The notes: generated from the letters alone by a model not told the origin. Shown: positions 2,420 to 47,308, numbered from the stretch's first letter. The stretch is 47,863 bases of DNA from Candidatus Woesearchaeota archaeon (GCA_019322535.1 JAHWIM010000006.1:1-47863); one strand, 5' to 3'. Program-made: numbers and translations.

Positions 2420-3508
2420 ATGATAAATGGGATGCATAGTAAAGATGATTTGCAGTGGTTAGAGAAAAATAACTTGTTAGAGCCTGCTAAAGAGAATTCT
2501 TTTCATTTCAAACATGTTATTAGGAATTGTTTAGGTATAAAAGGAGATGAACAGCTATTAATAATAGGAGATAGAGGATATGAAGAAGGAAGATTATCTC
2601 CAATAATTGCTTTGAGTTATTATCTTGCTGCAAAAGAACTGAATGTTCCTGCTAAATTAATACTGCAGGAAGATCCTAAATACAAAGGAGACAGAGCAGA
2701 CCAAGAAGTTGTTGATGCTTTGTATGATTTTAGGCCAGGAAATTGTCTTGCCTTGACATTAAGCGCAAGATTAGGAAGTATTAAAGAAATCAGCCACAGT
2801 TTTAGAGGTTTTATCAGAGAAAACAGACACAGATTTGTTTCAACAACAAGCTTAGGACAGTTAACTACAGACAAACTGCCTCTCTTGATAAACGCAATGG
2901 ATGTTGATTATGAAAAAATCAGGAAAAAAGGAAGAGAACTTAAACAAATACTAGACAATGGGCATCTTATTCATGTTGAAACAAAAGCAGGAACTGATTT
3001 TTACATGAACAAAAAAGGGAAAAAAGCTGTTGCAAGCATAGGAAATTTTACAGAACAAGGAGAAGGAGGAAACATTCCTATTGGAGAGGTATTTACACCA
3101 CCTAAATGGAAGCATGCAGAAGGAACTATTGTAATTGACGGCAGCAGTTCTTACAGAGAAGGAACTCAATTAATCAAAACACCAATAACATTAACTGTTG
3201 AAAAAGATGAGATTGTTGACATCAAAGGAGGGATAGAAGCTCAAAAACTAGAAGGAAGCTTGGTTTGGGCTTATAGAAAAGCAAAACATCCATGGGGTAT
3301 TAAAAGAATTGGTGAATTTGGAATTGGAATTAATCCTAAAGCAAGAATTGTAGGAGCAACTATAATTGATGAAAAAGCATTAGGAACTGCACATTTTGGA
3401 ATTGGAAGTAATTATTGGTTTGGCGGAACAATCTATGCAATTGTACATTATGATCAAATTGTTAAAAATCCTTCTATCACAATTGATGATAAACCATTAG
3501 ATATTTAA
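2420..3508 (+). CDS. Aminopeptidase, M29 (AmpS/PepS, aminopeptidase T-like) family
   Basis: 362 aa with motifs GTDFYMNKKG, GNIPIGEVFTPP, EGTIVIDGS, IGEFGIGINP and LGTAHFGIGSN, typical of thermophilic metalloaminopeptidases. Confidence 0.7.
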   Translation: MINGMHSKDDLQWLEKNNLLEPAKENSFHFKHVIRNCLGIKGDEQLLIIGDRGYEEGRLSPIIALSYYLAAKELNVPAKLILQEDPKYKGDRADQEVVDALYDFRPGNCLALTLSARLGSIKEISHSFRGFIRENRHRFVSTTSLGQLTTDKLPLLINAMDVDYEKIRKKGRELKQILDNGHLIHVETKAGTDFYMNKKGKKAVASIGNFTEQGEGGNIPIGEVFTPPKWKHAEGTIVIDGSSSYREGTQLIKTPITLTVEKDEIVDIKGGIEAQKLEGSLVWAYRKAKHPWGIKRIGEFGIGINPKARIVGATIIDEKALGTAHFGIGSNYWFGGTIYAIVHYDQIVKNPSITIDDKPLDI

Positions 3509-3543
3509 TAACGTTTAAAAACAACCTTAACTTCTAATATTAT

Positions 3544-4488
3544 ATGGAAAAAGCAGCTGAAACTATTGTAAAAGATTGTATGAGAATAAATGAGAATGAA
3601 AGTGTTTTAGTTATTACTGATTCTGAAAAGAGATTGATTGGTGATGCTATTTTCGAAGCTGCAAAGAAAATCACTTCTAAAGCAAGTTATACAGAGATTC
3701 CTGTTGGAAAATACAATGGAGAAGAACCTCCTGAAAATGTTGCAGCTGATATGTGTAATTTTGATGTTGTTTTAATGGCAACTGCAAAATCTTTAAGCCA
3801 TACAAAAGCAAGAAAAAATGCTTGTGAAAAAGGCGCAAGGATTGCTTCTATGCCAAACATCACAGAAGATATGATGAAGAGAACCTTGAGTGCTGATTAT
3901 TTTAACATTACTGAAGTTACTGAAAAAATTAATTCACAATTAGAAGGAAATAAAATAAGAATTGTTACAGAAGCAGGAACAGATATTACAATGGAAATGG
4001 ACAAAAGGCATAAATTTACTGACCAAGGATTATATCATGAAAAAGGAGATTGGGGAAACCTGCCTGCAGGAGAAGCTGGAATGGCTCCTGTTGAAGGAAA
4101 AACAGAGGGTGTTTTTGTTGTTGATGCAAGCATGGCAGGCATTGGCAAATTAAAAGAACCAATCAAAGTAATTGTTAAACAAGGATTTGTTGTTGATATC
4201 CAAGGCGGAGAAGAAGCTTTGGAATTAAAAAAAATGCTTGAGAATTTTAATGATTCAAAAGTTTTCAATATTGCTGAGTTAGGCATTGGAACTAATGACA
4301 AAGCCCAAATAACTGGAAATGTTTTAGAAGATGAAAAAGTTTTAGGAACTGCTCACATTGCATTTGGAAATAATACTGCTTATGGCGGCAGATGTGATGC
4401 TCCATGTCATCTAGATGGTGTTTTTAAGAATCCAACAATCTATGTTGATGATAAGAAAATAATGGAGAATGGGAAGTTATTGATCTGA
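3544..4488 (+). CDS. Aminopeptidase, M29 family, tandem paralog
   Basis: 314 aa, colinear with the upstream ORF: GTDITMEMDKR, GNLPAGEAGMAPVEG, EGVFVVDAS, IAELGIGTN, LGTAHIAFGNN. Confidence 0.7.
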   Translation: MEKAAETIVKDCMRINENESVLVITDSEKRLIGDAIFEAAKKITSKASYTEIPVGKYNGEEPPENVAADMCNFDVVLMATAKSLSHTKARKNACEKGARIASMPNITEDMMKRTLSADYFNITEVTEKINSQLEGNKIRIVTEAGTDITMEMDKRHKFTDQGLYHEKGDWGNLPAGEAGMAPVEGKTEGVFVVDASMAGIGKLKEPIKVIVKQGFVVDIQGGEEALELKKMLENFNDSKVFNIAELGIGTNDKAQITGNVLEDEKVLGTAHIAFGNNTAYGGRCDAPCHLDGVFKNPTIYVDDKKIMENGKLLI

Positions 4489-14635: not shown

Positions 14636-15247
14636 CTAAGCTGCTTGCTTATGTTGTTTTTGATAGTTAGGTGCTTCTTTTTCTACTACACCATTTATTG
14701 TGTTAGCAACTGTTTCTTTATGCATTTGGTTTTGCCTTAATTTATGAGGCAGTTCAACTTGAACTCCTTTATTTTCAAACTTATTAACTACATTATACTG
14801 GCTTTTTCCCTGCAGATGTTTTGGAATATGCTTTAAATCTGTTTCAACATGGTAAAATTTGCCTATATCTTCTCTTAATTGACCAGCAACTTTATTAGCT
14901 AAATCTTTGTTTCCCCCTGTAACGTAGATTGTTCTTGTTCTATCATATGATTTACCTTGTTTAGCATATGTTCCTTGCCTAGCATGTCCATGAATAGAAA
15001 TAGCTGTTTTGGCATAATCTCTAACTCCTGACAAATGTTTTGAATGTGTTGGGGTTACTCTTGTAGAAGCAACTCTTTTTTTTAGATTATGCGCAATATA
15101 CTTTGATGCTTCTTTGACTTTTCTTGCTATTTCTCCTGTTCCTTCTTCTGTTCCAGAATGATATGCAAGAACAGCAATTGGGCTTTTTCTAGCACTTTGC
15201 TCTTTTGTTCCAGGATGATTAACAAAATCCTTGTATTTATAGCTCAT
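14636..15247 (-). CDS. Poly-gamma-glutamate hydrolase-like protein (PghP/DUF867 family)
   Basis: 203 aa. LAYHSGTEEGTGEIA corresponds to the family's HGGxIExGT motif. AISIHGH, IYVTGGNKDLANKVAGQL and NVVNKFENKGVQVELPHKLR correspond to the N..N...GVQLE motif. Confidence 0.6.
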   Translation of the reverse strand: MSYKYKDFVNHPGTKEQSARKSPIAVLAYHSGTEEGTGEIARKVKEASKYIAHNLKKRVASTRVTPTHSKHLSGVRDYAKTAISIHGHARQGTYAKQGKSYDRTRTIYVTGGNKDLANKVAGQLREDIGKFYHVETDLKHIPKHLQGKSQYNVVNKFENKGVQVELPHKLRQNQMHKETVANTINGVVEKEAPNYQKQHKQAA

Positions 15248-15280
15248 GATATAATTTTATTTAGAACAAGTATAAAAAGT

Positions 15281-16156
15281 TTATCTAGCTGCTTTATCTA
15301 TTGCTTGAACAACCTGCTCTGTTGCTAATTTAATTCTTTTTTCTAAGTGTTTTGGTGTTTTAACTGTTCTGCCTTCTTTCCATAAATGCATTGGTCTTTT
15401 TGGCGAGACAAAAACCATGCTTCCAACATATTTACCGTTAACAGCCATGCTTCTTATTTCAAAGAATTCGTTTTTGAACAAAGGAGAACAATCTATTAAT
15501 TGCTCTAAAATCATTGATCTTTTTATTTGTAGATTTTTTGGTAATTTATTTATGTAAACTGTTTTGGTTTTTTGTCCTGTTCTTGGCTTGAAAACAAAAC
15601 CTTTTGGAAAATATTTCAACTTTTTCTTAAGTTGTGTTTTGTTTTCAATAACAAAATATTTTGGAACATGTATTTTAGTATATTTTTTAACTGCTTTTTT
15701 TGCTTTTACTTTATCTCTTGTTATCCTCAAAACAGATGAAGGATTTATTACCCTGATTCCTGCTGCTTCTTGTGCTCTAGTTACACCAGCTGCTACTCTT
15801 AGAACAACATCTGGCATTATTTTTTTGCCATCTTTATCAATCAAATGGCCGTCTCCTTCAGAAAGAAGATTTTTATTCCTTTTATAACTGCATCTGTAGA
15901 TTTTTCCTTTGAATAATTTTCTAAAATGGCCAGAAATAATAGATTCTTCCCATTTTCTCTTTGATATTACTGCAAGTTTTTTGTATTTGTTTTTATTCAA
16001 GAAACTGCAAAGTTCTTTTACTGGCTTGACATGCTTGTAAATTTTCAAATATTCTTTTAATGCACCAGGAGAAGAATTTGCTTCAATAAAATAAAGTTTG
16101 TTATCTTTTCCTAGAATAAAGTCAAGTCCAGCAAATAAGTAATTTTTAACTATCAT
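15281..16156 (-). CDS. ATP-grasp ligase (RimK/YheCD/TTL-like), apparently circularly permuted
   Basis: 291 aa. The C-terminal ATP-grasp signature is at the N-terminus (LFAGLDFILGKDNKLYFIEANSSPGA), followed by the N-terminal and central domains (PDVVLRV, GIRVINP, RDKVKAKK, FVFKPRTGQ, FEIRSMAVNGK). The start overlaps the upstream stop (ATGA). Confidence 0.6.
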   Translation of the reverse strand: MIVKNYLFAGLDFILGKDNKLYFIEANSSPGALKEYLKIYKHVKPVKELCSFLNKNKYKKLAVISKRKWEESIISGHFRKLFKGKIYRCSYKRNKNLLSEGDGHLIDKDGKKIMPDVVLRVAAGVTRAQEAAGIRVINPSSVLRITRDKVKAKKAVKKYTKIHVPKYFVIENKTQLKKKLKYFPKGFVFKPRTGQKTKTVYINKLPKNLQIKRSMILEQLIDCSPLFKNEFFEIRSMAVNGKYVGSMVFVSPKRPMHLWKEGRTVKTPKHLEKRIKLATEQVVQAIDKAAR

Positions 16157-17151
16157 GCTGTTTTAACAATTTTTAGTTTAATGCCTGATTTAATTGCTTC
16201 AAGAACATGATCATAGTAACTTATTCTTCTGTATCTGCCGTATGCATATCTATGCATTGTTGGACTGCCGTTGCATTCTATTACATAAGGCCTTTGATTT
16301 TTGTCAAATACAAAATCTACTGAGAACAGTCTTGGAGAATATCTTCCTAAAATTCTGTCTATTCTCTTAACTACAGCAACTGCTTTTAGAGGGATTTTTG
16401 ATTTTGGAACAAAAATCTTGTTTCCACCTAAAGCCATGTTTGCTGTTAATAATCCTTTTTTTGGAGTCCTGACATGGCAGTGGTCTATTTCTCCATTAAT
16501 AACAATAACCCTCATATCATGCAAACCTTTAACCAGTCCTTTTATTCCTTCAGAGCCATCTATAAATTCTTGCACAACTGTATTTTTATTGATTTTTTTT
16601 GGAAGCTTGTCTTTTGTAGTTACAGTAACATGCTCTCCTAGTGTACCATATCTTGGTTTTAAAACAATTTTTTCAGATTTAATTTCAGGAAGAACAATTT
16701 TTAATCCTCTAACTGTATTAACTAAGAATGTTTTAGGAGCAATAGTTGGGAAAAGCTCTGAAACCATGCATTTGTCCCAGCAGAATTCTTCAAGTTCTGG
16801 ACTGTTGAACAATCCAACTTGCTCTTCCATTTTGTATTTTAAGTTTTCTATTCTTTTGTTCTTAGTAAAGCCATCATATATTGCTTTGTTAAATCTGCTG
16901 TAGATAATATCTAATTTAACATTGTCTATTTTTTTCCATTTTTTATCAAAAACCCATGCATGTTTTAGAATTCCATTTTGATATAATTTATAATTAGCAC
17001 AACATAGAACAAGACCTTTTTTCTTAGCTTTTCTAGCAAGGATTGCATAAGATCTGTTCATTGCAAATGTTCTGAATGGTTTTTTAGTATTAGAATTAGC
17101 GAAATGAGTAAATAAAACTCCTATTTTTCCGTTTTGATAGTTTTCTATCAT
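16153..17151 (-). CDS. ATP-grasp ligase, YheC/YheD-like
   Basis: 332 aa with KIGVLF..., LDIIYSRF, WDKCMVSELF, IVLKPRYGTLGEHV, VVQEFID, HDMRVIVINGE, TANMALGG and LFSVDFVFDKNQRPYVIECNGSPTM, in normal ATP-grasp order. Confidence 0.7.
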   Translation of the reverse strand: MIENYQNGKIGVLFTHFANSNTKKPFRTFAMNRSYAILARKAKKKGLVLCCANYKLYQNGILKHAWVFDKKWKKIDNVKLDIIYSRFNKAIYDGFTKNKRIENLKYKMEEQVGLFNSPELEEFCWDKCMVSELFPTIAPKTFLVNTVRGLKIVLPEIKSEKIVLKPRYGTLGEHVTVTTKDKLPKKINKNTVVQEFIDGSEGIKGLVKGLHDMRVIVINGEIDHCHVRTPKKGLLTANMALGGNKIFVPKSKIPLKAVAVVKRIDRILGRYSPRLFSVDFVFDKNQRPYVIECNGSPTMHRYAYGRYRRISYYDHVLEAIKSGIKLKIVKTA

Positions 17152-20059: not shown

Positions 20060-20407
20060 ATGGTAAAGGGAAAGATAGTTGTAGGGTTAACTGAAAACGT
20101 AACAATTATAGGACCTAAAGGAAAGAGAAAAAGAATTACATCTAGAATAGACACTGGTGCAACTAAAAGCAGTGTTGATGCTAAACTAGCTGCTGAATTA
20201 TCATTAGGACCAATCATAAAAACAAAGCTAATCAAGTCTGCTTCAGGAAACAAGATGAGGCCTGTATTAAAAGCAGAGATTAAGATTGCTAAAAAAGATC
20301 TAAAAGAGGAATTTACTGTTGCTGACAGAAGCCATTTAAGATACAAAGTTTTGGTTGGACAAAACATACTCAAAAAAGGATTCCTTATAGACCCGAGTAA
20401 AAAATGA
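20060..20407 (+). CDS. Retropepsin-like aspartic protease, RimK-associated (the family historically named putative ATP-dependent zinc protease)
   Basis: 115 aa with RIDTGATKSSVD (DTGA active site) and DRSHLRYKVLVGQNIL. It overlaps rimK by ATGA. Confidence 0.75.
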   Translation: MVKGKIVVGLTENVTIIGPKGKRKRITSRIDTGATKSSVDAKLAAELSLGPIIKTKLIKSASGNKMRPVLKAEIKIAKKDLKEEFTVADRSHLRYKVLVGQNILKKGFLIDPSKK

Positions 20408-21492
20408 CAATAAAAGCTGCTGTTATAAGTTTAGGAAGTACGAGCTCAAAATGGACAATCAGAGCTCTAAAAAAGTACATCAGAATAGTTGATGATATAA
20501 ATATTAAAGATGTTGAAGTTAATTTGAGTTCTCAAAAACTAGAAGTATTGTATAAAGGAAAACCATTGGAGGATTATGATTGTGTTTTTGCAAAAGGAAG
20601 TTTTAGATATGCTACTTTATTAAGGGCTATTAGTTTGATTGCATCCCAAAAATCTTATGTTCCTGTTAAACCTTCTGCTTTTACTGTTGCTCATGATAAA
20701 TTACTAACACAATTTAGACTGCAACAGCACGGAATTCCTATGCCTGTTACATACTTATCAGCAACTCCAGAAGCAGCTAAGAAAATTCTTGAAAGAGTGC
20801 ATTATCCAATAATCATGAAATTTCCTAAAGGAACTCAAGGAAAAGGGGTTATGTTTGCAGACAGTTTTGCTTCTGCAAATAGCATGTTAGATGCTTTAAC
20901 TGCCTTAAAGCAGCCTTTTTTGATTCAAGAATATGTTGAAACAGGCGGCACTGACATAAGAGCAATAGTTGTTGGAGATAAAGTTGTCGCTGCTATGAGA
21001 AGATCAGCTGAAATAGGTGAGAAAAGGGCAAATATTCATGCAGGCGGCAAAGGAGAAGCAATAAGTCTTGATGTGAAAACTAGAAGACTTGCTGTTATGG
21101 CTGCTGAAGCAATTGGTGCAGATATCTGCGCTGTTGATATTTTAGAAAGTGCTAAAGGTCCTGTTGTTATAGAAGTTAATATTTCTCCTGGTTTGCAAGG
21201 CATTACAGCAACAACAAAGATAGATGTTGCTGACAAGATTGCCAGGTTCTTGTATAAAAAGACAAAAGAGATTGCTGAATCAAAGAAAAAATTAACTACA
21301 ACAGAAATAATGAAAGAGGTTACTCCTGGCAAAGATATTTTAACTCATTTGGACTTAAGAGGAGAACGAATTCTCTTGCCTGATTATGTGACAAAAGAAA
21401 CTAAGTTTTCTGAAAAAGATGAAGTTTTACTCAAAGTTAAAGAAGGCAAGCTTGTTATTGAAAAATTTGAAGTTGGCAAAGAAAAGAAGTGA
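20404..21492 (+). CDS. rimK: RimK-type ATP-grasp alpha-L-glutamate ligase with a C-terminal extension
   Basis: 362 aa with DKLLTQFRL, IIMKFPKGTQGKGV, LIQEYVE, DIRAIVVGDKV, ANIHAGG and AVDILESAKGPVVIEVNISPGLQGI. The last roughly 65 aa (ILLPDYVTKETKFSEKDEVLLKVKEGKLVIEK) look AbrB/SpoVT-like. Confidence 0.85.
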   Translation: MTIKAAVISLGSTSSKWTIRALKKYIRIVDDINIKDVEVNLSSQKLEVLYKGKPLEDYDCVFAKGSFRYATLLRAISLIASQKSYVPVKPSAFTVAHDKLLTQFRLQQHGIPMPVTYLSATPEAAKKILERVHYPIIMKFPKGTQGKGVMFADSFASANSMLDALTALKQPFLIQEYVETGGTDIRAIVVGDKVVAAMRRSAEIGEKRANIHAGGKGEAISLDVKTRRLAVMAAEAIGADICAVDILESAKGPVVIEVNISPGLQGITATTKIDVADKIARFLYKKTKEIAESKKKLTTTEIMKEVTPGKDILTHLDLRGERILLPDYVTKETKFSEKDEVLLKVKEGKLVIEKFEVGKEKK

Positions 21493-21633: not shown

Positions 21634-24600
21634 ATGGCAGATGATAAAAGATTAGAAGAGATAGCAGATTCTAATAATCCAATACCTAAAAGAATTCTTA
21701 TTGCAGATGATGACAACAGTATGTTGAGACTTATGGTAGATATTTTCCAGGATGAAGATTATATAATACAGACAGCAAAGAAAGGTGAAGGGGTTTTGAA
21801 GGCGCTTGAAGAAGAAGAGTTTGATTTTGTTGTAACTGACCTTATAATGCCTGACAAGAGCGGAGAACAGTTAATAAGGGCTATAAAAAAAACAGGAAGT
21901 CCGCGGCCTGTGGTTGTTGTATCTGGACATGGAACTATTCAAGAAATTGAAAGAATAAAAAGAATTGGTGTTTATGATTTTCTTCCTAAACCATTTAACG
22001 TGGAAAATTTAAGGGAAATTGTAAGAAGAGGTGTTACAGAGATTGATGAGATTGCTTCAAGGTTAGCATGGTATAGTAATTTAGATAAGCCAGAAGGATA
22101 TACACCAGAATTAAATGAAGAATTAGAATACAGAAGAAACGCCAGAGGCATAGTTGCAAAAGGCGAGAAAGTTTTATTGGTTGCAAATACTGAACAAGAA
22201 AGAGATAATTTAGACAATCTGCTTTTAGATCTAGGGTATTGTGTTGATAGAACACTTGACTGTGGAAAAGCTTTGACTATGATCGAACAAACTCAGTTTG
22301 ATGTTGTTCTGACAGACATGACTTTAAGCGGAGGACATGGTATATCAGTCGTTGACCGGGCTGGAACTACCAGCAGGGCTAGAAAAAAGAGAACTAAAGT
22401 AGTTGTGTTGAGTGAGTATTCTGACAGAGAAAACCAGTTAAAAACATTAAAATCTGTTCTTTTGGGTGCAAGTGATGTTATTACAAAACCCAGGGATATT
22501 GCTGACTTAGATCAAAGAGTAATCAAATCTTCTGTCTGGAGAGCATTAAGATTGGCTAAAGGCTCTAAATCATTAAGAAAGAATAAGGTGCTTGTTGTTG
22601 GTTCAGATTATGAAGATTTAGTTAAAAGTTTAGAAAAACAAAAATATAAAGTTGATGTGGTTTCTGGCGAAGAAGATGTTGATGAAGTAAAAAAGTTGGA
22701 CGGCTATCATGTGGTTCTTTTGAATGAGAGATTTGGTTTAGATATGTTAGGTAAAATAAAACAAACTGATCCAAAAATAAAAGCATTAGTGCTTGCGTCA
22801 AAGCATTTAACTCCTGAAGAAGCTGTTTCGTCTATGGTTTATGGTATTGATGATGTAGTCTATCAATCTGATGTAGAAACTATGGCTGCTGCTGTTGAAA
22901 ATAGCGTTATGACAAGCCCTCTACAAAAAAAAGCATATGACTCTATAAATGCATTTGTAAAAAAACATTTAGAACTTGCAGAAAACCCATTAGAGCGTTT
23001 TGCTGAATTGTGCAGTACTGGAAGCTTAGAAGATAGGGCACTAGCTTGTTGCGCTAGAAGTTTACTTCATTTTAGGCTTGGTGACTTAGAGAGTATTAGA
23101 GAGGCTATCAATTGTCTACATAATGCTAAAAAATTAAATCCTGAATCAAACATGCCTTTTGTTTTATATACAAATTTTGTATCCAAATTACCTGCTGAGA
23201 CAGTAAGTATGTTGACAAAGAATTTAGACGATTCTTTAAGACAGCTTGAAATTAAGCCTTATTATTTCATGCGGATGAGGGATTCTCTGTTAGATGAACA
23301 AAAAAGACGTGCTGAAGAAGAAGGCTATGTTACACCAACTCAGCCTACAAGAAGCAAGATAATGAAATTTCATTCACATGATTATTGGTTCTATATGAAG
23401 TCTGCACCACTTGAATCTATGATATCATATAGGAATAACATAAATTTTTTCCAAAGGATTAATAGAAGGTATGAGGATTGGCGTTCACTTTTTGGATTTG
23501 TTTCAAGCAAAAACTATAAAACCCCTGTAGCAGGATTCAAAGCAGTTATAACAGATGCTAAAGAACCTTTTATTCTTGAAGCAGAGGATGGAAATGCTCC
23601 TGTAGAACCAGAGGTTTTTAATCAGCTTGAACAAAGCAAAAAAGATAGAGCAAGATTAAGTGCTTTGCTTTCTGCGTGTGTCCGCCATGCAGCATATACC
23701 TGCGCTAATGGGCCTATAGCTCTTGCAAAAAATCATGTTGATAACCTAGAAGAATTTTGGGAAGAGAGACTAGGAACAAGAGTTGTAGAGCCGATAAAGG
23801 CTTTATTGAAAAGAAAAGAAATTTCATTAGATGAGAAATTAAAAGAAGAGGGCAGAAGCCTGGATCAAGAACTTGAAGAAATAGAAAAGGCCTTTCATGA
23901 ATCAACCCATAGATTAAGAAAAGCACTTGCAGCTCAAGAGCCAAAAGGTTATTATTCTGATTGGTGGACTTCAAATGCAGCTGTAAATAGTGCTGGTGAT
24001 GTTTATAAATATGGCTTTCTCAGAACAAGATCAGGTCTGCCTATTGTAGTTGATCTTGCAACTGTATTCCATTTTAGAGATTTTTTATCTTTCTTATCTG
24101 AAAATGAAGAAGAAAAAGTAGAAAGAGAAAAAGGTTATGTTAAACAATTCTTTAATGATTATTCTGAAGCTGTTAGTAGAGGAATTAACAAAATAGTGCA
24201 AGAATATGAAGCAAGCCCTAAGAAATTTATTATTCAAGAATTTGAAAAAGACGCAAGCGAAATTAGAAAAACTGTTTTAGAATCTGAACAAACCCAAGAA
24301 AAAGAACCAGGAGAAGAAGAGATTTTTTTCAAAGGCGAACATCTAGTTGGCCTAAGATATGTTAGTTATTATCCTTCTGTAGATAAAATAGATGCTCTTA
24401 AAAAATATTTTGTGACAGAGGTAGCTGATAAATTACCTGTTGGCGAATATTTTACTGCACTGAAAGAATACGCCAAAGACAAAGGAGATGATGTCGTGGA
24501 GTATGTTTGTGAGGTTGAAAGGTTTGCAACAAATCTAAAACCAAAAAAACCTCTCAAGGTAACAGATGAAATATTAAGTCATAAATTAATACCTGCTTAT

Positions 24601-24903
24601 TATAATGCATTATGCAATAGGGGAATGTTAATGGGAGGCACTCTTTCTCAGTTTACATCAGAGAAATTAGACAAAGGTGATTTGAATGGTGCTGGAATTG
24701 GTGGTAAATTAAATGATATAAGTCTTTCTTTCCAAAACGCTCTTAGAGGTATTAGAACTTATCATAAATTACTGTCTGAAAATCCAGAGTATATCCCAGA
24801 AGAAGGTGAATTTGAAAACTATCAAAGATTAGAAGGGGCATTAGATAAATTATGCGGGTTATTTAAAACAGCTAAAGAGAAGGGGCAAAATGAAAAAAGC
24901 TGA
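21634..24903 (+). CDS. Triple receiver-domain protein with a large uncharacterised C-terminal region
   Basis: 1089 aa. REC1 is intact (ILIADDDNS, VVTDLIMPD, VVSGHG, LPKPF). REC2 is partly degenerate (LLVANTEQE, VLTDM, ITKP). REC3 is a pseudo-receiver (VVLLNERF, no Lys). About 650 aa follow with no family I recognise. Confidence 0.7.
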   Translation: MADDKRLEEIADSNNPIPKRILIADDDNSMLRLMVDIFQDEDYIIQTAKKGEGVLKALEEEEFDFVVTDLIMPDKSGEQLIRAIKKTGSPRPVVVVSGHGTIQEIERIKRIGVYDFLPKPFNVENLREIVRRGVTEIDEIASRLAWYSNLDKPEGYTPELNEELEYRRNARGIVAKGEKVLLVANTEQERDNLDNLLLDLGYCVDRTLDCGKALTMIEQTQFDVVLTDMTLSGGHGISVVDRAGTTSRARKKRTKVVVLSEYSDRENQLKTLKSVLLGASDVITKPRDIADLDQRVIKSSVWRALRLAKGSKSLRKNKVLVVGSDYEDLVKSLEKQKYKVDVVSGEEDVDEVKKLDGYHVVLLNERFGLDMLGKIKQTDPKIKALVLASKHLTPEEAVSSMVYGIDDVVYQSDVETMAAAVENSVMTSPLQKKAYDSINAFVKKHLELAENPLERFAELCSTGSLEDRALACCARSLLHFRLGDLESIREAINCLHNAKKLNPESNMPFVLYTNFVSKLPAETVSMLTKNLDDSLRQLEIKPYYFMRMRDSLLDEQKRRAEEEGYVTPTQPTRSKIMKFHSHDYWFYMKSAPLESMISYRNNINFFQRINRRYEDWRSLFGFVSSKNYKTPVAGFKAVITDAKEPFILEAEDGNAPVEPEVFNQLEQSKKDRARLSALLSACVRHAAYTCANGPIALAKNHVDNLEEFWEERLGTRVVEPIKALLKRKEISLDEKLKEEGRSLDQELEEIEKAFHESTHRLRKALAAQEPKGYYSDWWTSNAAVNSAGDVYKYGFLRTRSGLPIVVDLATVFHFRDFLSFLSENEEEKVEREKGYVKQFFNDYSEAVSRGINKIVQEYEASPKKFIIQEFEKDASEIRKTVLESEQTQEKEPGEEEIFFKGEHLVGLRYVSYYPSVDKIDALKKYFVTEVADKLPVGEYFTALKEYAKDKGDDVVEYVCEVERFATNLKPKKPLKVTDEILSHKLIPAYYNALCNRGMLMGGTLSQFTSEKLDKGDLNGAGIGGKLNDISLSFQNALRGIRTYHKLLSENPEYIPEEGEFENYQRLEGALDKLCGLFKTAKEKGQNEKS

Positions 24904-26110
24904 TCTTCACGTCCATGGGTTTGTATGCGATGGAAGCTCTACACCAGATGAAATCGCCAAGATTGTTGTGCAAGACAGTAGTTTAAAACATATTGCTCCT
25001 ACTGGCCATAACACACATGCGTTAGCTATTCTTGTTGAAAAAGAATTAGATAAACTAGGGTGGGATGGAAATATCTACGTAGCTGCTGAACTAAACTGTG
25101 ACTTTAATTATTCTGTAGAAACGCCTGATATGAAGAAAAGAGCCTCTTTTTCTTCTCACTGGAATGTTTTCTTTTTGCCAAGAGAAGGGGAGTCAATTGA
25201 AGAGGTATACAGAAGAATAGCAGTTGATGTAAACCCTTTAGAAGGAGAATTAAACAAAACAGTTTTTGATAAATATACTTCTGAAGAACAAATAAAGCTG
25301 ATAAATGATAATTTTCCAGGCAGACCTAAAGATAGCTATGTAACAAGAAAAGATGTTGAAGAAATAAGCAGAAAAAAGAGAGATTTTATTTTAAGTTTTT
25401 TAGAAGGAATTAATTTAGATGCTGCCAGCTTGATTCCTCCTTTCACATTAACTGCATTTCCTGACACATGGATTAGAGTAATTTTAAACAAAGCCTGGAC
25501 AAGTGATCCAGAATTTGCAAAACAGCAGTTTAAAAGAGGAAGTGATGATGGAAGAGGAAGAGGAAGTTGTTATTCTGACAGCGCTGCTGCATATAAACCT
25601 GCTGAAGAAGTGCTTTCTTATCTTAAAGAACATAATGAACGCTTAGATCCTTATGTTGTTTCATGGGAGCATCCTGCTGTTTCAGCTTTGCTAATGATAG
25701 GAGATCATCTAAGAGGAATAAAAGAACCAGAAAACAGGGGAAGTGTATCTTTTCCTGAAGCTGAAGCTATAATGGATAAAATATTAAGATTTAAAGAACA
25801 AGGCATGATGAATGGATTAGGTGTTTTTTATTCAACTCACACTCCTGAAGTTATTTCAGGGCTAATGGAGCTTGTTTACTTGCTTAATGATAATGATCCT
25901 CAACATCCTCTTTATATGCTTGGCGGGTCAGACAACCATCATGGAACAGATGATAAAAAAAGATCTATTGGTATGGTCTGCACAGATTCTAGAATTGTTA
26001 TGCCATCTGACCTTGTTGTTGCTATGGAAAGAAAAGCGCCTTGGGTGCCTGGCAAAGGCTATGATATTGGAACAAAAATAGTTTCACCAAAAGAGCTAGT
26101 TGAGTTTTAA
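24890..26110 (+). CDS. PHP-domain metal-dependent phosphoesterase with large insertions
   Basis: 406 aa with ADLHVHGFVCDGSSTPDEIAK, IAPTGHNTH, AAELNC, WEHPA and GGSDNHHGTDD. The start overlaps the upstream gene by 14 nt and has GGGG 5 nt upstream. Confidence 0.65.
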   Translation: MKKADLHVHGFVCDGSSTPDEIAKIVVQDSSLKHIAPTGHNTHALAILVEKELDKLGWDGNIYVAAELNCDFNYSVETPDMKKRASFSSHWNVFFLPREGESIEEVYRRIAVDVNPLEGELNKTVFDKYTSEEQIKLINDNFPGRPKDSYVTRKDVEEISRKKRDFILSFLEGINLDAASLIPPFTLTAFPDTWIRVILNKAWTSDPEFAKQQFKRGSDDGRGRGSCYSDSAAAYKPAEEVLSYLKEHNERLDPYVVSWEHPAVSALLMIGDHLRGIKEPENRGSVSFPEAEAIMDKILRFKEQGMMNGLGVFYSTHTPEVISGLMELVYLLNDNDPQHPLYMLGGSDNHHGTDDKKRSIGMVCTDSRIVMPSDLVVAMERKAPWVPGKGYDIGTKIVSPKELVEF

Positions 26111-27042
26111 ACAACCATTCCAAGATAACATCCCAGCATGTTGAATACCATCTGCTGAATATTAATCAAATGGTGTATTAATCTAACTTCAAAACGATTT
26201 TCTGTTTTTCTTTCAAATAATACATTTGCTTCATGTATTATGCTTTTCCTTGCTTCTGCTAATTTTCTAATTTTGCCTTTGTCATACTTATAAAATAATT
26301 CATAAAATCTAACTATTGACTCTGTTACCTGTCTGAATAAATCTAATGCTTCTTTGCTGATCTTAACTTTTTTCACTTTTGCTTCATATAGGTATGTGCA
26401 CATATATTTTAGTTGATCTGCAACTTTTTCTAATTCCCATACTATATTATAAACAAAGGTTGTTTTTTTGTAGTTTTTGTATCCCTTTTTATTCAATATT
26501 CTCTCACAAAAATTACATAACCTGTTGTTTGTCTGCTCTAATGATAGAACGTCTGGTAAATTTTCTTTTTTGCCTTCCTTAAGAGTTTCTAATGTGGTTT
26601 TTGCCATAGAAACAGTTACTATAAATAATCTCCTAAGAACATTATTAAATTCTGTTCCAAGCTGGTGGCCTAAATCCTTAATAACACAGCGTTTTCCGCT
26701 TTGTTCCAGCAGCTCATAGCCAGGCAATAAATCAGTCATTTGTTTAGGAATATCTCTGATTAAATCTGGTGAATCAAATTTTAATTCAACTTCATCGTAT
26801 CCTGATTTATATACTGCAGCTAATGAACGGAAAAGGAATGGGTCTAATTCAGTAACATCTAATTCTGTTTTTTCTATGTTTTGTCCAAAATTAGTAGTTT
26901 TAGGAGAAAGCAGCAAATTTCCTTCTTTTTCTTCTAACCCTATTAAATCACCTTTTTGAAGCTTATTTTTTACAATCCAAGTTTTTGGAATTGACATTAC
27001 AAAAGAAGTTTTTCCAAATGAGATTAGTTTTCTGAATTCCAT
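26107..27042 (-). CDS. AbrB/SpoVT-domain plus PhoU-domain regulator (archaeal PhoU-like)
   Basis: 311 aa. The N-terminal swapped-hairpin motif is FGKTSFVMSIPKTWIVKNKLQKGDLIGLEEKEGNLLLSP, followed by helical PhoU-like repeats. GGGGTGG lies 5 nt upstream of the ATG. The 3' end overlaps the convergent PHP gene by 4 nt. Confidence 0.65.
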   Translation of the reverse strand: MEFRKLISFGKTSFVMSIPKTWIVKNKLQKGDLIGLEEKEGNLLLSPKTTNFGQNIEKTELDVTELDPFLFRSLAAVYKSGYDEVELKFDSPDLIRDIPKQMTDLLPGYELLEQSGKRCVIKDLGHQLGTEFNNVLRRLFIVTVSMAKTTLETLKEGKKENLPDVLSLEQTNNRLCNFCERILNKKGYKNYKKTTFVYNIVWELEKVADQLKYMCTYLYEAKVKKVKISKEALDLFRQVTESIVRFYELFYKYDKGKIRKLAEARKSIIHEANVLFERKTENRFEVRLIHHLINIQQMVFNMLGCYLGMVV

Positions 27043-27169: not shown

Positions 27170-27292
27170 ATGAAAAACATATTCTTAAACAGGAAAGAGG
27201 ATCCTGAAGACATATATGCTGAATTGCTTGACGCAGACGAAGTCGCTGACTGGGAAGAAGCTTTTATGAGAGGATATGAAGAAGCTGGTTAG
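27170..27292 (+). CDS. Micro-ORF (40 aa, acidic)
   Basis: Read by hand as MKNIFLNRKEDPEDIYAELLDADEVADWEEAFMRGYEEAG. GGGGAGGTGGGG ends 2 nt before the ATG. Below the ORF-track cutoff. Confidence 0.35.
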   Translation: MKNIFLNRKEDPEDIYAELLDADEVADWEEAFMRGYEEAG

Positions 27293-27300
27293 GTGGTAAT

Positions 27301-27393
27301 ATGAAATTAACAGAAAAGGAGATCAAAGAAATACTTAGTAAAAAGGATTTAACAGACTTGGAACTTGATTTAATTATGAATGACGAGGCTTGA
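27301..27393 (+). CDS. Micro-ORF (30 aa)
   Basis: MKLTEKEIKEILSKKDLTDLELDLIMNDEA. AGGTGG 5 nt upstream overlaps the previous stop, and the next ATG lies 2 nt after its stop. Confidence 0.3.
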   Translation: MKLTEKEIKEILSKKDLTDLELDLIMNDEA

Positions 27394-27395
27394 AA

Positions 27396-27584
27396 ATGTC
27401 AATAAAAAACATATTGGGCTTAACTGAAACTGGCTTAACAGATTATGAAATAATGGCCAAGATAAGGGAAGCCCGAAGAAAGAATTTGAATGAAGTAGAT
27501 TTCATTAGTGTAGACGGCAGTGTTATTAAATTATTTATTCCTTTAATTCCAAACTTTGATATTTATATGGATATAGGGAGTTGA
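27396..27584 (+). CDS. Small conserved hypothetical protein (62 aa), paralog of 39100..39285
   Basis: MSIKNILGL..IMAKIREARRKN..VDFISVDGSVIKL aligns with MSIKKLLGL..IIAKIKEAKKKG..VEFLKKDGSKVQIKL at roughly 40 percent identity by eye. Start taken at the ATG at 27396 rather than the TTG at 27390. Confidence 0.5.
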   Translation: MSIKNILGLTETGLTDYEIMAKIREARRKNLNEVDFISVDGSVIKLFIPLIPNFDIYMDIGS

Positions 27585-44549: not shown

Positions 44550-45227
44550 TTATTGTTCTTCAGGAATATTTTGTGTTTGAATTTCTTCTTTACCGGCAAC
44601 TTCCTCTTCCTTTTCAGATGCAGCCGGAGCCTCTTCTTTAACTTCTTGTTTTTGTTTTCTCTTTAATGCTTTTAGTTTTCTTTGTTTTTCTTTTTCTTCT
44701 TCAATTGTTTGTGCTAATTTATGAGGTTTTAGATTTATTTTTGTGAAAATTTCTTTTTCTATTTTTGAAGCTTCTTTTTCTGCTTCATCTCTTCTTCCAC
44801 CTGTTTCATCAGGATATCTTCTTTTTGCATCTTCATGCCTTTCTTCTCTTGTTACAAGTTCATTATGCAAAACTCTCATGTCTGCATAATTCAATAGTTT
44901 TTCTTCCCATGTTTTTAATTGATTGTCAAGTAAATAAGGAAAACAGTGTTTTGGAATAAGTTCTGCAACTTCAGGATGATCTCCTCTTAACAATTCAAAA
45001 GCTAATTTGCCGTGATTTTCTGGCTCTTGATTTGTTTTTAGTTTATCAAGATCATGAAGCAAGGCAGCTGCTTCTAAAAGAGGAATATTAATTTTTTCTC
45101 CTGTTTTTTTCAATTCTTTTGCAAGAAAAACAGCTACTTTTGAAACTATTTGAGAATGCTCTATTATATGCGCAACAACATCATGCTCTTCTAGTATTTT
45201 CATGCATTGTTTTGGGTCTGGTATCAT
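44550..45227 (-). CDS. HD-domain phosphohydrolase with a K/E-rich C-terminal tail
   Basis: 225 aa with [13 protein letters not shown] and AALLHDLDK (H...HD). The tail is [24 protein letters not shown].... Confidence 0.7.
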
Positions 45228-45270
45228 TTTAAATTTCTCTGAAATTTAAAGCTTGAAAATCTTATGATTT

Positions 45271-45885
45271 TCATTGTTTTAACATTTGTTTTGGCTTTTC
45301 AACAAGAAAATCAGGGTTTGCTTTTAAAAGTTTATCTTTTTTATGAAATCCCCATGTGACAGCCATTGTTTTTAGCTTTACTTTTTTTGCTTCTTTTATA
45401 TCTCCTACTGTGTCTGTGACAAAAACAGCTTGGCTTGGTTTAATTTTTAATTTTTTTAAGCATAATCTTATTTTCTTTGTTTTATGTTCTTCATGCTCTG
45501 CTCCAATTATTAGTTTAAAGTTTTTTAGAATTCCTGCTTTTTTAAGATCATTTTTCATTACATCAGCGTAATTTGATGAAACAACTGCTAATTTGTATTT
45601 TTTTGAGAGTTTTTTTATTGTTTCAGGAATGTTTTTGAAAGATTTTGGATGTTTTGTTTTAAGTATTTTAATTGAATCTTTTTTTAGTTTTTCCATATCT
45701 GCATCTGTAACTCCTCTCTGCTCCATAGCAGTGTAGAAGTTTGTTTTATAGATTTCAAGGAATTCTTTTTTTGTTTTTATTTTTCTTTTGCAGTATTTAT
45801 CGCAAACAGTTTTTACTACATTCCAAGCTATGTTTATTGTATCAAAGATTACTCCGTCATAATCAAATATTAGTGCTTTAATCAT
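45271..45885 (-). CDS. HAD-superfamily hydrolase (phosphatase-like)
   Basis: 204 aa with LIFDYDGVIFDT (DxD), VVSSN and VTDTVGDIKEAK. Confidence 0.8.
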   Translation of the reverse strand: MIKALIFDYDGVIFDTINIAWNVVKTVCDKYCKRKIKTKKEFLEIYKTNFYTAMEQRGVTDADMEKLKKDSIKILKTKHPKSFKNIPETIKKLSKKYKLAVVSSNYADVMKNDLKKAGILKNFKLIIGAEHEEHKTKKIRLCLKKLKIKPSQAVFVTDTVGDIKEAKKVKLKTMAVTWGFHKKDKLLKANPDFLVEKPKQMLKQ

Positions 45886-46901
45886 TTAATCTTCCTCACA
45901 ATGCCTTTATCAGCATCAACTTCAACGTAATCTCCATCTTTTAGAACTTTTGTTGCTATTTTTGTTCCAATAACACAGGGAATTCCCATTTCTCTAGAAA
46001 CTATTGCAGCATGGCTCATTATTCCGCCTTCATCAGTTACTACTGCTGCACTTTTATTAAAAAGTGGAACAAGATTTGGATTTGTGCTTGGCGAAACTAA
46101 TATGTCTCCTTTATCAAAAGGAATATTTGGAGTAGAATATAAAACTAATCTAACTCTTCCTTTAACTTTTCCAGGATAAGCAGATGTACCTTTTATAACA
46201 TCTGTTAATTTAATATTTTCAATTTTAGTGATAATTTTCATAGAATCATCAATAAACTCTACAGTTTCTTTTCCATCAAGTATTTGATAAACAAGATATT
46301 GTTTTCTTAGCTTTTGTTTTTTCCTATCCTTGATAACAGATTTGTTTCCATCAAGAACTTCAGAGACAGTCATAAGATTAATGTCGTCAGTTACTCCTAA
46401 ATTTTTTTGTGCTAAAGGAAGAATTATGTTATTTAGAAATTGAGGATAAAAAGAAACAGAGCGTAATTTTGCTGTTAATGCAAAAAGTTCTTTATCTTTG
46501 ATTTTCTCTTCATACAATATTTTATAAGCAAAAAAAGGAAAGAGTGTTGTTTTAAGCTGCATCTCAATAAAAAAATCAACTGCTTTTTCAAGAGTAAACT
46601 TTTTCTTCAAAGTAGAATTCATATTTTTATTAATCTCTATTCCTTCCTCAAGAATTTGTTTACATTTTTTAGGGTTTTTAATAACAATATTTTTTAAGTG
46701 ATTATTAAATCTCTTAAGTTGAGATTTAATTGAATACCTTCTCATAATATTAGGAAGCTCTTCGATAAATAACGCGTCTGGCAGATTTTCTCCTAAAATT
46801 TCCTTAGTTTTGTCAGAATTATACCATCTATACCATATAGAAGCACCTAATAAAGTAAATGGTCTTGTTAGATAATATGTCCAATCTTTATTTAATTTCA
46901 T
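45882..46901 (-). CDS. PEP-utilising-enzyme mobile (phosphohistidine swivel) domain protein with an unknown N-terminal domain
   Basis: 339 aa. The C-terminus reads GKVKGRVRLV..DILVSPSTNP.....AAVVTDEGGIMSHAAIVSREMGIPCVIG. The first roughly 230 aa are unrecognised. It overlaps both neighbours by 4 nt. Confidence 0.65.
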   Translation of the reverse strand: MKLNKDWTYYLTRPFTLLGASIWYRWYNSDKTKEILGENLPDALFIEELPNIMRRYSIKSQLKRFNNHLKNIVIKNPKKCKQILEEGIEINKNMNSTLKKKFTLEKAVDFFIEMQLKTTLFPFFAYKILYEEKIKDKELFALTAKLRSVSFYPQFLNNIILPLAQKNLGVTDDINLMTVSEVLDGNKSVIKDRKKQKLRKQYLVYQILDGKETVEFIDDSMKIITKIENIKLTDVIKGTSAYPGKVKGRVRLVLYSTPNIPFDKGDILVSPSTNPNLVPLFNKSAAVVTDEGGIMSHAAIVSREMGIPCVIGTKIATKVLKDGDYVEVDADKGIVRKIK

Positions 46902-47308
46902 AACTTCTTCAACTCCTTATATGCTTGTCTGAATTCTTTTTTTGTATATCTTAAATCTTTTAAAGCTTGCTCATAACTGCACCATTTGTAATCTGAATGT
47001 TCTTTAGATATGGTTATTTTGTCTTTTTTGTTTGCTTTTACTAAGAAGAAATTCTGGAATTTATGAATTTTTTCTCCTTCCCAAACAAACCAGTAATCTG
47101 ATTTGATATCTAATTTTTTAACAACTTCTACATCTTTTAAACCAGTCTCTTCTTTGACTTCTCTTTTAACAGCAGTTTCCCAGTCTTCTCCTTTTTCTTT
47201 TCCGCCTTGAACAAACTGCCATCCAACCCATGTTCCTTTTTTCTTAAGAATTAGAAATTTATCTTTATCAAACGTAATTGCAACAATATTTTGGATGACT
47301 TTTACCAT
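46898..47308 (-). CDS. Nudix hydrolase
   Basis: 136 aa with the Nudix box GGKEKGEDWETAVKREVKEETGL. Confidence 0.8.
   Translation of the reverse strand: MVKVIQNIVAITFDKDKFLILKKKGTWVGWQFVQGGKEKGEDWETAVKREVKEETGLKDVEVVKKLDIKSDYWFVWEGEKIHKFQNFFLVKANKKDKITISKEHSDYKWCSYEQALKDLRYTKKEFRQAYKELKKL

What the first reader, a model, noticed from the sequence alone, without database searches (positions are those of the whole stretch)
21634..26110. Orphan triple-receiver protein with a roughly 650-aa unknown output region, translationally coupled to a PHP phosphoesterase
The 1089-aa ORF begins with one intact receiver (DDD, TDL, SG, PKP), then a partly degenerate receiver (NTE in place of the acidic pair), then a pseudo-receiver (Asn replaces the phospho-acceptor Asp and the Lys is missing). 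About 650 aa follow that match nothing I recognise apart from a TPR-like stretch. The gene overlaps by 14 nt a PHP-fold phosphoesterase that carries large insertions. No histidine kinase is present in the window. A REC-REC-pseudoREC array fused to a novel domain and paired with a PHP enzyme is not a described two-component architecture. It is surprising in a reduced genome. A convergent AbrB-PhoU regulator abuts the pair.
Basis: partly seen in the sequence, partly recalled or inferred. Interest (0 to 1): 0.65.

Follow-up and report, generated by a model that had tools for sequence, protein, structure and literature searches.

The report
Receiver-gated kinase-like protein with AbrB-PhoU partner
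The "unknown" 650-residue tail of this archaeal triple-receiver protein is a divergent kinase-like domain, and the gene belongs to an apparently undescribed module of tiny DPANN archaea. In that module a kinase-like sensor protein always faces an AbrB-PhoU DNA-binding regulator, and a PHP phosphoesterase sometimes joins them.

Summary
The window has a 1089-aa ORF with three receiver (REC) domains, a 406-aa ORF overlapping it by 14 nt that keeps all PHP metal-ligand motifs, a convergent AbrB-PhoU gene, and no recognisable histidine kinase.

The interpretation needs revising.

1. Residues 440-1089 are not fold-less. An AlphaFold model (pLDDT 79) gives a helical TPR-like linker, an APH/choline-kinase-type kinase fold and a helical bundle. 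K588, E595, D776 and N781 are kept, but the Mg-binding DFG aspartate is Gly793.

2. About 20 distant relatives exist (24-33% identity). Those with genomic context lie in archaeal or Woesearchaeota/Nanoarchaeota-labelled contigs. Most of the short ones start with one degenerate receiver-like domain.

3. The conserved partner is the AbrB-PhoU gene, not the PHP. It lies convergent and abutting in 8 of 8 relatives looked up. In the 10 most similar AbrB-PhoU loci the convergent gene is a family member. 46 of 64 paralogous loci with room carry a kinase-like gene there.

4. None of the orthologous loci examined has a PHP gene. The kinase→PHP→←AbrB-PhoU layout does recur in three paralogous modules, and PHP genes adjoin four others.

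Best reading: a lineage-specific phospho-signalling module, here placed under receiver control. Whether the kinase domain is catalytic, and what it acts on, are inferred only.

The parts
21634..24903 (+). 1089-aa gene: three receiver domains + helical linker + kinase-like domain + helical bundle
   Evidence: ORF; Pfam Response_reg x3; family of about 20 distant relatives; AF2 model
21688..22038 (+). REC1 (aa 19-135), canonical: D25/D26, D69, S97, K119
   Evidence: Pfam 21-130, E 5.4e-42; CheY alignment
22165..22533 (+). REC2 (aa 178-300): acidic pair replaced by A-N; Asp, Ser and Lys kept
22585..22917 (+). REC3 (aa 318-428): pseudo-receiver, with no acceptor Asp and no Lys
22951..23328 (+). 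Helical-hairpin (TPR-like) linker, aa 440-565
   Evidence: AF2 helices H2-H124; Pfam TPR at the equivalent place in paralogues L029 and L053
23341..24123 (+). APH/choline-kinase-like kinase fold, aa about 570-830: K588, E595, YSD776WWTSN781, G793 in place of the DFG Asp, LPIVVD806LAT
   Evidence: Foldseek top hits APH(3')-Ia, YtaA, FN3K, PRPK and choline kinase; motif alignment; Pfam APH/Pkinase in paralogues
24124..24900 (+). C-terminal helical bundle, aa 831-1089, conserved in the family (N852, D873, Y957, R996)
24890..24903 (+). 14-nt overlap of the kinase-like gene's end with the PHP start
   Evidence: the junction is equally tight in L022 (4-nt overlap), L029 (8-nt overlap) and L062 (1-nt gap)
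24890..26110 (+). 406-aa divergent PHP phosphoesterase (COG0613/TrpH-like) with a large insertion between H90 and H261
26107..27042 (-). 311-aa AbrB(SpoVT/MazE-fold)-PhoU regulator, the conserved convergent partner
   Evidence: 39-51% identical to the partners of the relatives
27170..27292 (+). 40-aa acidic small ORF ending ...EEAFMRGYEEAG, divergent from AbrB-PhoU; possible fourth component
   Evidence: The same motif and the same relative position occur in L006/L007, L008, L011, L013 and L091

Best explanation
The locus is one copy of a lineage-specific (Woesearchaeota/Nanoarchaeota, DPANN) signalling module. Its core is an atypical kinase-fold protein with a variable N-terminal input domain, plus a convergently transcribed AbrB-PhoU DNA-binding regulator. 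A COG0613-type PHP phosphoesterase joins in a minority of modules. In this window the input is a receiver array. Proposed mechanism, all inferred: phosphorylation of REC1 at D69, by a histidine kinase encoded elsewhere or by a small phosphodonor, is passed through the two degenerate receivers and the helical linker to the kinase-like domain. That domain then phosphorylates, or merely binds, the AbrB-PhoU protein or a small ligand that the PhoU part senses, and so changes transcription. The co-translated PHP enzyme removes the phosphate or degrades the phosphorylated or nucleotide product, which resets the switch. Shown here: the domain anatomy, the fold, the residue inventory and the gene-neighbourhood conservation. 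Inferred: catalysis, substrate and the direction of information flow.
For: Fold: the AF2 model built on an 18-sequence alignment has pLDDT 79 and pTM 0.78. Nearly all of its leading Foldseek hits are APH/ChoK-type kinases (APH(3')-Ia probability 1.0, target-normalised TM about 0.5; also YtaA, FN3K, PRPK/Bud32 and choline kinase). Motifs: D776 is invariant and N781 nearly invariant across the family. The consensus of 50 paralogous partners reads YxDxxxxN...DFE...P..D. Pfam APH matches 9 and Pkinase 3 of 50 genes at the same genomic position. Partner: a convergent AbrB-PhoU gene abuts or overlaps the 3' end in 8 of 8 relatives looked up and is 39-51% identical to the window's. Starting from AbrB-PhoU, the independent A2 profile finds a family member as the convergent gene in the 10 most similar loci, L008-L017. 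Of these, L010, L015 and L017 are the contigs already seen as L004, L002 and L001. The profile also finds weaker relatives in 7 more loci, all in the same position. 46 of 64 loci with room have a kinase-like gene there, and none lies elsewhere in 878 kb. PHP: the same three-gene layout occurs in L022, L029 and L062, and PHP is adjacent in L042, L053, L054 and L078. Other partners at the same position are also phosphotransferases: REC-REC-P-loop kinase in L084 and a PEP-utilising enzyme in L083. Input domains vary (REC, GAF, TPR, PD40), as in sensor proteins.
Against: The window protein lacks the Mg-binding DFG aspartate (Gly793), as do P0003-P0006 and P0009. Several short members have Arg at the beta3 Lys position. 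Catalysis is therefore doubtful, and the domain may be a pseudokinase. The Foldseek E-values are marginal (5e-3 and above), and Pfam APH does not hit the window protein itself. APH/ChoK enzymes usually phosphorylate small molecules rather than proteins. The PHP relatives are closest to nucleotide phosphatases and exoribonucleases (2yb1, 7ug9), not to protein phosphatases. None of the orthologous loci examined has a PHP gene. No histidine kinase is in the window, and REC1 may never be phosphorylated. The core HMM used for the 46-of-64 count was built from those same neighbours, so it is circular; only the A2 and Pfam results are independent.
Confidence: 0.5

Rival explanations
1. Pseudokinase scaffold. 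The kinase-fold domain has lost catalysis and acts only as a receiver-controlled binding partner that sequesters or releases the AbrB-PhoU regulator. This would resemble bacterial PhoU binding PhoR and PstB.
For: The DFG Asp is replaced by Gly in the window protein and its long-form relatives. Lys and Arg alternate at beta3 across the family. The large conserved helical bundle after the kinase core suits protein-protein contacts.
Against: The catalytic-loop Asp is invariant and the Asn nearly so, which is unusual for a purely structural domain. An acidic residue 5 positions before the Gly is present in 5 of 6 Gly-type members, where Asp-type members have Lys or Arg. That could compensate for the lost Asp. 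CASK-type kinases with GFG work without Mg (my own recollection, not checked here).
Confidence: 0.25
2. Metabolite kinase/phosphatase pair. The APH-like domain phosphorylates a small molecule, the PHP enzyme hydrolyses it or a nucleotide such as pAp, and AbrB-PhoU regulates the pair or senses the product.
For: The closest structures are small-molecule kinases: APH(3'), choline kinase, FN3K and N-acetylhexosamine kinase. The PHP neighbours match pAp phosphatase Cv1693 and RNase AM at E about 1e-43.
Against: Bona fide Hanks-type Pkinase domains occupy the same position in 3 of 50 modules. Sensor-type input domains and one dedicated DNA-binding partner per copy look like signalling rather than metabolism. 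Several paralogous modules occur per small genome.
Confidence: 0.15
3. Toxin-antitoxin or anti-virus defence module, with an AbrB/MazE-fold antitoxin and a kinase-fold toxin, as in HipA.
For: The N-terminal domain of the partner is MazE/AbrB-fold. The modules are multicopy and diverge fast.
Against: The genes are convergent, not co-transcribed. The partner is a 300-aa AbrB-PhoU protein more conserved than the kinase (39-51% against 25-28% identity). PADLOC gives only receiver-region matches. The flanks are housekeeping genes.
Confidence: 0.05

Closest known systems
Response regulators with enzymatic output domains (for example RssB, PleD, CheB; Pfam PF00072 family)
   Same: There is an N-terminal canonical receiver with all five signature residues, followed by degenerate receivers as adaptor domains (PleD also has a REC-pseudoREC pair), and then an effector domain.
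   Different: The effector is an APH/ChoK-type kinase fold with long helical flanks. That output is not listed among archaeal response-regulator outputs in the 2018 census (PMC5847659). No partner histidine kinase is nearby.
Aminoglycoside phosphotransferase / choline kinase / FN3K / Bud32 (protein-kinase-like superfamily, Pfam APH PF01636)
   Same: The two-lobe kinase fold, the beta3 Lys, the alphaC Glu, the catalytic-loop D....N and the downstream DLA-type helix.
   Different: Tyr replaces the His of the HxD motif and Gly replaces the Mg-binding Asp. About 130 aa of helical repeats precede the domain and about 260 aa of helical bundle follow it. It is fused to receivers. Sequence identity to the solved structures is only 9-13%.
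COG0613 PHP phosphoesterases (Cv1693 3',5'-nucleoside bisphosphate phosphatase, PDB 2yb1; E. coli TrpH/RNase AM, PDB 7ug9)
   Same: All PHP metal-ligand motifs are present in the usual order, with an insertion domain between the fourth and fifth motifs.
   Different: The protein is very divergent: no Pfam hit and 15-23% identity to the PHP genes of related modules. The insertion is longer (about 170 aa) and a C-terminal extension of about 50 aa is added.
Bacterial PhoU-PhoR/PstB phosphate signalling
   Same: A PhoU-domain protein is genetically tied to a kinase. PhoU modulating a sensor kinase is established knowledge and was not tested here.
   Different: Here the PhoU domain is fused to an AbrB DNA-binding domain. 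The kinase is not a histidine kinase, the genes are convergent, and no pst transporter genes are adjacent.

Membership tests
Response regulator receiver (PF00072) | Profile match above the curated threshold | tested here: met
   142.9 bits against a cut-off of 30.2, with three stretches
Response regulator receiver (PF00072) | Acidic pair, phospho-acceptor Asp, Thr/Ser and Lys | tested here: met
   REC1 has D25/D26, D69, S97 and K119. REC2 lacks the acidic pair. REC3 lacks the Asp and the Lys.
Response regulator receiver (PF00072) | Cognate histidine kinase in the genome | not testable with these tools
   None found among the window ORFs scanned. The rest of the genome is not available, and the contig is not in the look-up collection.
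APH/ChoK protein-kinase-like superfamily | Bilobal kinase fold | tested here: met
   AF2 pLDDT 79. Nearly all of the leading Foldseek hits are APH/ChoK/FN3K/PRPK kinases, with probability up to 1.0, but E is 5e-3 or weaker and the target-normalised TM is about 0.5.
APH/ChoK protein-kinase-like superfamily | Catalytic loop (H)xDxxxxN | tested here: met
   YSD776WWTSN781. The Asp is invariant and the Asn at least 90% conserved in the family.
APH/ChoK protein-kinase-like superfamily | Mg-binding Asp of the DFG/DxE motif | tested here: not met
   Gly793 (KYGF). The Asp is present in 13 of 20 family members and nearly invariant in the 50 paralogues.
APH/ChoK protein-kinase-like superfamily | Match to the Pfam APH or Pkinase profile | tested here: not met
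   No hit for the window protein. APH hits 1 of 20 relatives and 9 of 50 paralogues, and Pkinase 3 of 50.
PHP phosphoesterase (PF02811, COG0613 type) | His/Asp/Glu metal ligands in the canonical order | tested here: met
   H7, H9, D14, H40, E67, H90, H261, D348 and H350
PHP phosphoesterase (PF02811, COG0613 type) | Profile or fold match | tested here: inconclusive
   No Pfam hit. NCBIfam gives weak N-terminal hits only. hhalign to 7 PHP neighbours gives probability 52% and E 1.4e-4 over the full length. The single-sequence AF2 model failed, with pLDDT 35.
AbrB-PhoU regulator | SpoVT/AbrB (MazE-fold) N-terminal domain plus PhoU helical domain | tested here: met
   The window protein scores 20.9 and 21.0 bits, just under the cut-offs. 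Orthologues reach 3e-9 and 6e-7, and identity among them is 39-51%.
Known anti-phage defence / toxin-antitoxin systems | Match to PADLOC models beyond generic domains | tested here: not met
   Only receiver-region matches for the first protein, and none for the PHP or AbrB-PhoU proteins

The most novel reading that the evidence does not exclude
DPANN archaea of the Woesearchaeota/Nanoarchaeota group use a signalling system of their own. Sensor-domain-fused APH-fold (or other) kinases are each paired with a dedicated AbrB-PhoU transcription factor, which they phosphorylate or bind, and a PHP phosphoesterase acts as the reset enzyme. The window's copy links this system to His-Asp phosphorelay through a receiver array. 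That would be a new kind of two-partner signal transduction, expanded in genomes otherwise almost devoid of classical two-component systems.
Probability: 0.3. Interest if true: 0.85.

Novelty: new variant of a known kind. Interest (0 to 1): 0.66.

Why it matters
DPANN archaea have tiny genomes, and the 2018 census of archaeal two-component systems found very few such systems in them (PMC5847659). How they sense and regulate is therefore largely unknown. This locus points to a recurrent, multicopy pairing of kinase-fold sensor proteins with AbrB-PhoU regulators that I could not find described. It also assigns a fold, and so testable residues, to a 650-aa region that standard annotation leaves blank. 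It gives archaeal AbrB-PhoU proteins, which are widespread but functionally obscure, a candidate upstream partner.

Tried and rejected
- Three word-indexed homologue searches, with the C-terminal region, the PHP protein and the family profile, returned only the query itself.
- PDB sequence searches with the C-terminal region, with its profile and with the AbrB-PhoU profile gave nothing useful.
- The single-sequence AlphaFold model of the PHP protein was unusable (pLDDT 35), so no fold search was run on it.
- The metagenome scan for PHP relatives found only a generic high-GC bacterial PHP N-terminus (L088).
- The window protein is not in the contig look-up collection, so the source sample and the rest of the genome could not be reached.
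- The N-terminal 340 aa of the long-form relatives could not be shown to be receiver-like (hhalign probability below 1%).
- A defence or toxin-antitoxin reading was considered and set aside (convergent orientation).
- tRNA and Rfam scans of the window found nothing.
Full report
**1. Checking the observation**

The ORF list confirms a 1089-aa ORF at 21634..24903 (+) and a 406-aa ORF at 24890..26110 (+), overlapping by 14 nt. A 311-aa ORF at 26107..27042 (-) has a stop that overlaps the second gene by 4 nt.

Pfam finds three Response_reg stretches in residues 1-430 (E 5.4e-42). Nothing credible matches beyond that.

I aligned the three stretches to CheY, whose sequence I supplied from memory:

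| Domain | Acidic pair | Acceptor Asp | Ser/Thr | Lys |
|---|---|---|---|---|
| REC1 | D25/D26 | D69 | S97 | K119 |
| REC2 | lost (A-N) | kept | kept | kept |
| REC3 | lost | lost (Asn or gap) | kept | lost (Gln) |

The second protein has no Pfam match. NCBIfam gives only weak N-terminal hits to PHP-type hydrolases.

The third protein scores just under the Pfam cut-offs for MazE/AbrB and PhoU. Its orthologues pass clearly, at 3e-9 and 6e-7.

Ribosomal protein S3Ae, TFIIB and a class I lysyl-tRNA synthetase show that the window is archaeal. GC content is about 31%. GyrB is 64% identical to that of a Woesearchaeota MAG.

None of the window ORFs of at least 120 aa that were scanned, which is nearly all of them, is a recognisable histidine kinase.

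**2. The 650-residue C-terminal region**

Word-indexed searches found only the query itself. An exhaustive HMMER scan of 1.84 billion cluster representatives found 19 distant relatives. They are 24-33% identical and 470-1065 aa long, and the match sits in their C-terminal halves.

Their alignment shows several conserved features:
- a Lys/Arg in a beta strand (FYMK588S in the window protein);
- a following helix with a Glu and the motif RINRR;
- a hinge-like (Y)RE(Y)V.G;
- an A...A.GP helix;
- an invariant Asp and a nearly invariant Asn in YSD776WWTSN781;
- a downstream (Y)DF in 13 of 20 members;
- the motif LP.VIDLAT.

This is the pattern of the aminoglycoside-phosphotransferase/choline-kinase branch of the protein-kinase-like superfamily.

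An AlphaFold2 model of residues 440-1089, built on an 18-sequence alignment, reached pLDDT 79 and pTM 0.78. Nearly all of its leading Foldseek PDB matches are kinases of that branch: APH(3')-Ia, YtaA, FN3K, APH(2''), PRPK/Bud32 and choline kinase. Probabilities reach 1.0, but E-values are only 5e-3 or weaker and target-normalised TM is about 0.5.

The model places:
- a helical-hairpin (TPR-like) region at aa 440-565;
- the kinase core at about aa 570-830;
- a large helical bundle from aa 831 to the end.

The window protein keeps K588, E595, D776 and N781. It has Gly793 where the Mg-binding Asp of the DFG motif should be, as do P0003-P0006 and P0009. An acidic residue five positions upstream is present in 5 of these 6 Gly-type members, where Asp-type members have Lys or Arg. 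Whether that compensates is speculation.

**3. Architecture of the family**

The N-termini of the short relatives (750-850 aa) align to REC1 of the window protein (hhalign probability 83%, E 9e-6). The N-termini of the long relatives do not detectably do so.

Pfam recognises a receiver in only 2 of 20 members. A receiver-like N-terminus joined to a kinase-like domain is thus shared with the short relatives, but the receiver is usually degenerate. The window protein is unusual in having a fully canonical REC1 and three copies.

**4. The conserved partner**

I looked up the contigs of eight relatives: P0003, P0004, P0005, P0007, P0008, P0014, P0015 and P0021. In all eight, the gene is followed by a convergent gene of 259-313 aa whose 3' end abuts or overlaps it. 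None has a PHP gene in between. For the five partner proteins compared directly, identity to the window's AbrB-PhoU protein is 39-51%. The kinase-like proteins themselves share only 25-29% identity.

I then searched one genome per species with the AbrB-PhoU alignment. This returned 80 loci, nearly all labelled Woesearchaeota or Nanoarchaeota. Some TPA records are labelled 'uncultured Methanosarcinales', which I could not verify. Results:

- **Independent family profile (A2).** In the ten loci whose AbrB-PhoU is most similar to the window's (L008-L017), the profile finds a family member as the immediately convergent gene. Three of these (L010, L015, L017) are the same contigs as L004, L002 and L001. 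In seven more distant loci it finds weaker relatives in the same position.
- **Alignment of 50 convergent neighbours.** The motif Y.D....N...DFE is nearly invariant.
- **Pfam on those 50.** APH matches 9, Pkinase 3, guanylate kinase 2 and receiver 2.
- **Core profile built from those neighbours.** It marks 46 of the 64 loci that have at least 1.5 kb of downstream sequence. It marks no gene anywhere else in 878 kb. This count is circular for membership, but the positional exclusivity is still informative.

Input domains vary and include GAF, TPR and PD40. One partner (L084) is REC-REC fused to a P-loop kinase. Another (L083) is a PEP-utilising enzyme. Four assemblies contribute two modules each among the 80 loci.

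**5. The PHP gene**

The window's PHP protein has no close relative in any search. Canonical PHP genes do sit next to AbrB-PhoU paralogues in seven loci; the L054 one scores Pfam PHP 7e-15:

| Locus | Arrangement |
|---|---|
| L022, L029, L062 | kinase-like → PHP → ← AbrB-PhoU, as in the window; junctions are a 4-nt overlap, an 8-nt overlap and a 1-nt gap |
| L053 | PHP → kinase-like → ← AbrB-PhoU |
| L042, L054 | PHP divergent from AbrB-PhoU, kinase-like convergent with it |
| L078 | PHP convergent with AbrB-PhoU; the contig then ends |

The window protein aligns to these seven over its full length, with every metal-ligand motif in register (hhalign E 1.4e-4, probability 52%). As a group they match the COG0613 structures 3e0f, 2yb1 (a 3',5'-nucleoside bisphosphate phosphatase) and 7ug9 (the 5'-3' exoribonuclease TrpH/RNase AM) at about 1e-43 to 1e-46.

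The PHP gene is therefore a recurrent accessory of the module, not its core. The window's copy is a highly diverged member with a 170-aa insertion.

**6. How it most likely works**

*Shown.* The locus has a canonical receiver followed by two degenerate ones, a helical linker, a kinase fold that retains four of its five key residues, a tightly coupled PHP hydrolase with a complete metal site, and a dedicated AbrB-PhoU DNA-binding partner that is conserved across the lineage.

*Inferred.* REC1 phosphorylation controls the kinase-like domain. That domain acts on, or binds, the AbrB-PhoU regulator or a ligand it senses. The PHP enzyme resets the state.

Three observations favour signalling over metabolism:
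- true Hanks-type kinases and other phosphotransferases occupy the same position;
- the N-termini are sensor-type domains;
- each copy has its own regulator.

The missing DFG Asp keeps a pseudokinase/scaffold reading alive. The small-molecule specificity of the closest structures, and the nucleotide-phosphatase affinity of the PHP group, keep a metabolite-based reading alive. A toxin-antitoxin or defence reading has little support: the genes are convergent, the flanks are housekeeping genes, and PADLOC gives no matches beyond the receiver region.

**7. Comparison with known systems, and novelty**

The protein is a member of the response-regulator receiver family by every sequence criterion tested. 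Its output belongs by fold to the APH/ChoK kinase superfamily, but it fails the Mg-binding Asp test and the Pfam profile test. I describe it as kinase-like, not as an APH.

The 2018 census of archaeal two-component systems lists no such output and reports very few such systems in DPANN (PMC5847659). Full-text searches for AbrB-PhoU together with kinases, or for signalling in Woesearchaeota, found nothing relevant. The only mention of an archaeal AbrB-PhoU protein was as a chromatin-associated protein in Thermococcus (PMC7325993).

All the parts are known folds. The combination, and the conserved convergent pairing, appear to be undescribed. I rate it a new variant of a known kind, with a moderate chance that it represents a distinct signalling scheme.

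**8. Caveats**

- Relatives are few and distant.
- The structural match is significant by probability but marginal by E-value.
- No activity or interaction has been tested.

Noticed in passing
window 27170-27292 (+); also L006:12181-12333, L008:1188-1346, L011:69-230, L013:387-557, L091:8286-8441: A 40-56-aa acidic ORF ending in the motif (E)AF(M/L)(R/K)G(F/W/Y) lies divergently upstream of the AbrB-PhoU gene in the window and in five other distinct modules of the same subfamily (L006 and L007 carry the same sequence). Looser variants occur in L001 and L089. It may be a fourth component. Two or three further small ORFs follow it (window 27301-27584).
   Followed up: partly
window 20060-21492 (+): A RimB-like Zn/aspartyl protease (115 aa) overlaps a RimK ATP-grasp ligase (362 aa) by 4 nt, directly upstream of the receiver gene. 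The same pair lies within a few kb of the module in L016, L022, L052, L053, L079, L083 and L089, so the wider neighbourhood is loosely syntenic.
   Followed up: partly
window 14636-17151 (-): A second ATP-grasp cluster: two RimK/ATP-grasp-like genes (291 and 332 aa) followed by a poly-gamma-glutamate hydrolase-like gene (203 aa). It suggests peptide or polyglutamate tailing and trimming.
   Followed up: no
L024, L028, L037, L046 and many other loci, immediately upstream of AbrB-PhoU on the opposite strand: In the more distant paralogous modules, a gene of about 155 aa lies divergently upstream of AbrB-PhoU. The four copies scanned are Lrp/AsnC-type regulators. It takes the place of the small acidic ORF.
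   Followed up: partly
L084:8933-10339 (-) and L083:7484-10615 (-): Some AbrB-PhoU paralogues have non-APH phosphotransferases as their convergent partner: a REC-REC-P-loop (guanylate-kinase-like) protein in L084 and a 1043-aa protein with a PEP-utilising domain in L083.
   Followed up: partly
window 45882-46901 (-): A 339-aa protein carries only the PEP-utilisers mobile (phosphohistidine) domain at its C-terminus. It lies next to NUDIX, HAD and HD hydrolase genes (44550-47308). It might be another phosphotransfer element in this small genome.
   Followed up: no
window 2420-4488 (+): Two tandem, divergent M29-type aminopeptidase-like genes (362 and 314 aa).
   Followed up: no
L015-L017, L019, L022 and other records: Many TPA MAG records that carry this Woesearchaeota-type module are titled 'uncultured Methanosarcinales archaeon'. 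One (L035) is titled as a WOR-1 bacterium. These are probably labelling or binning errors.
   Followed up: no
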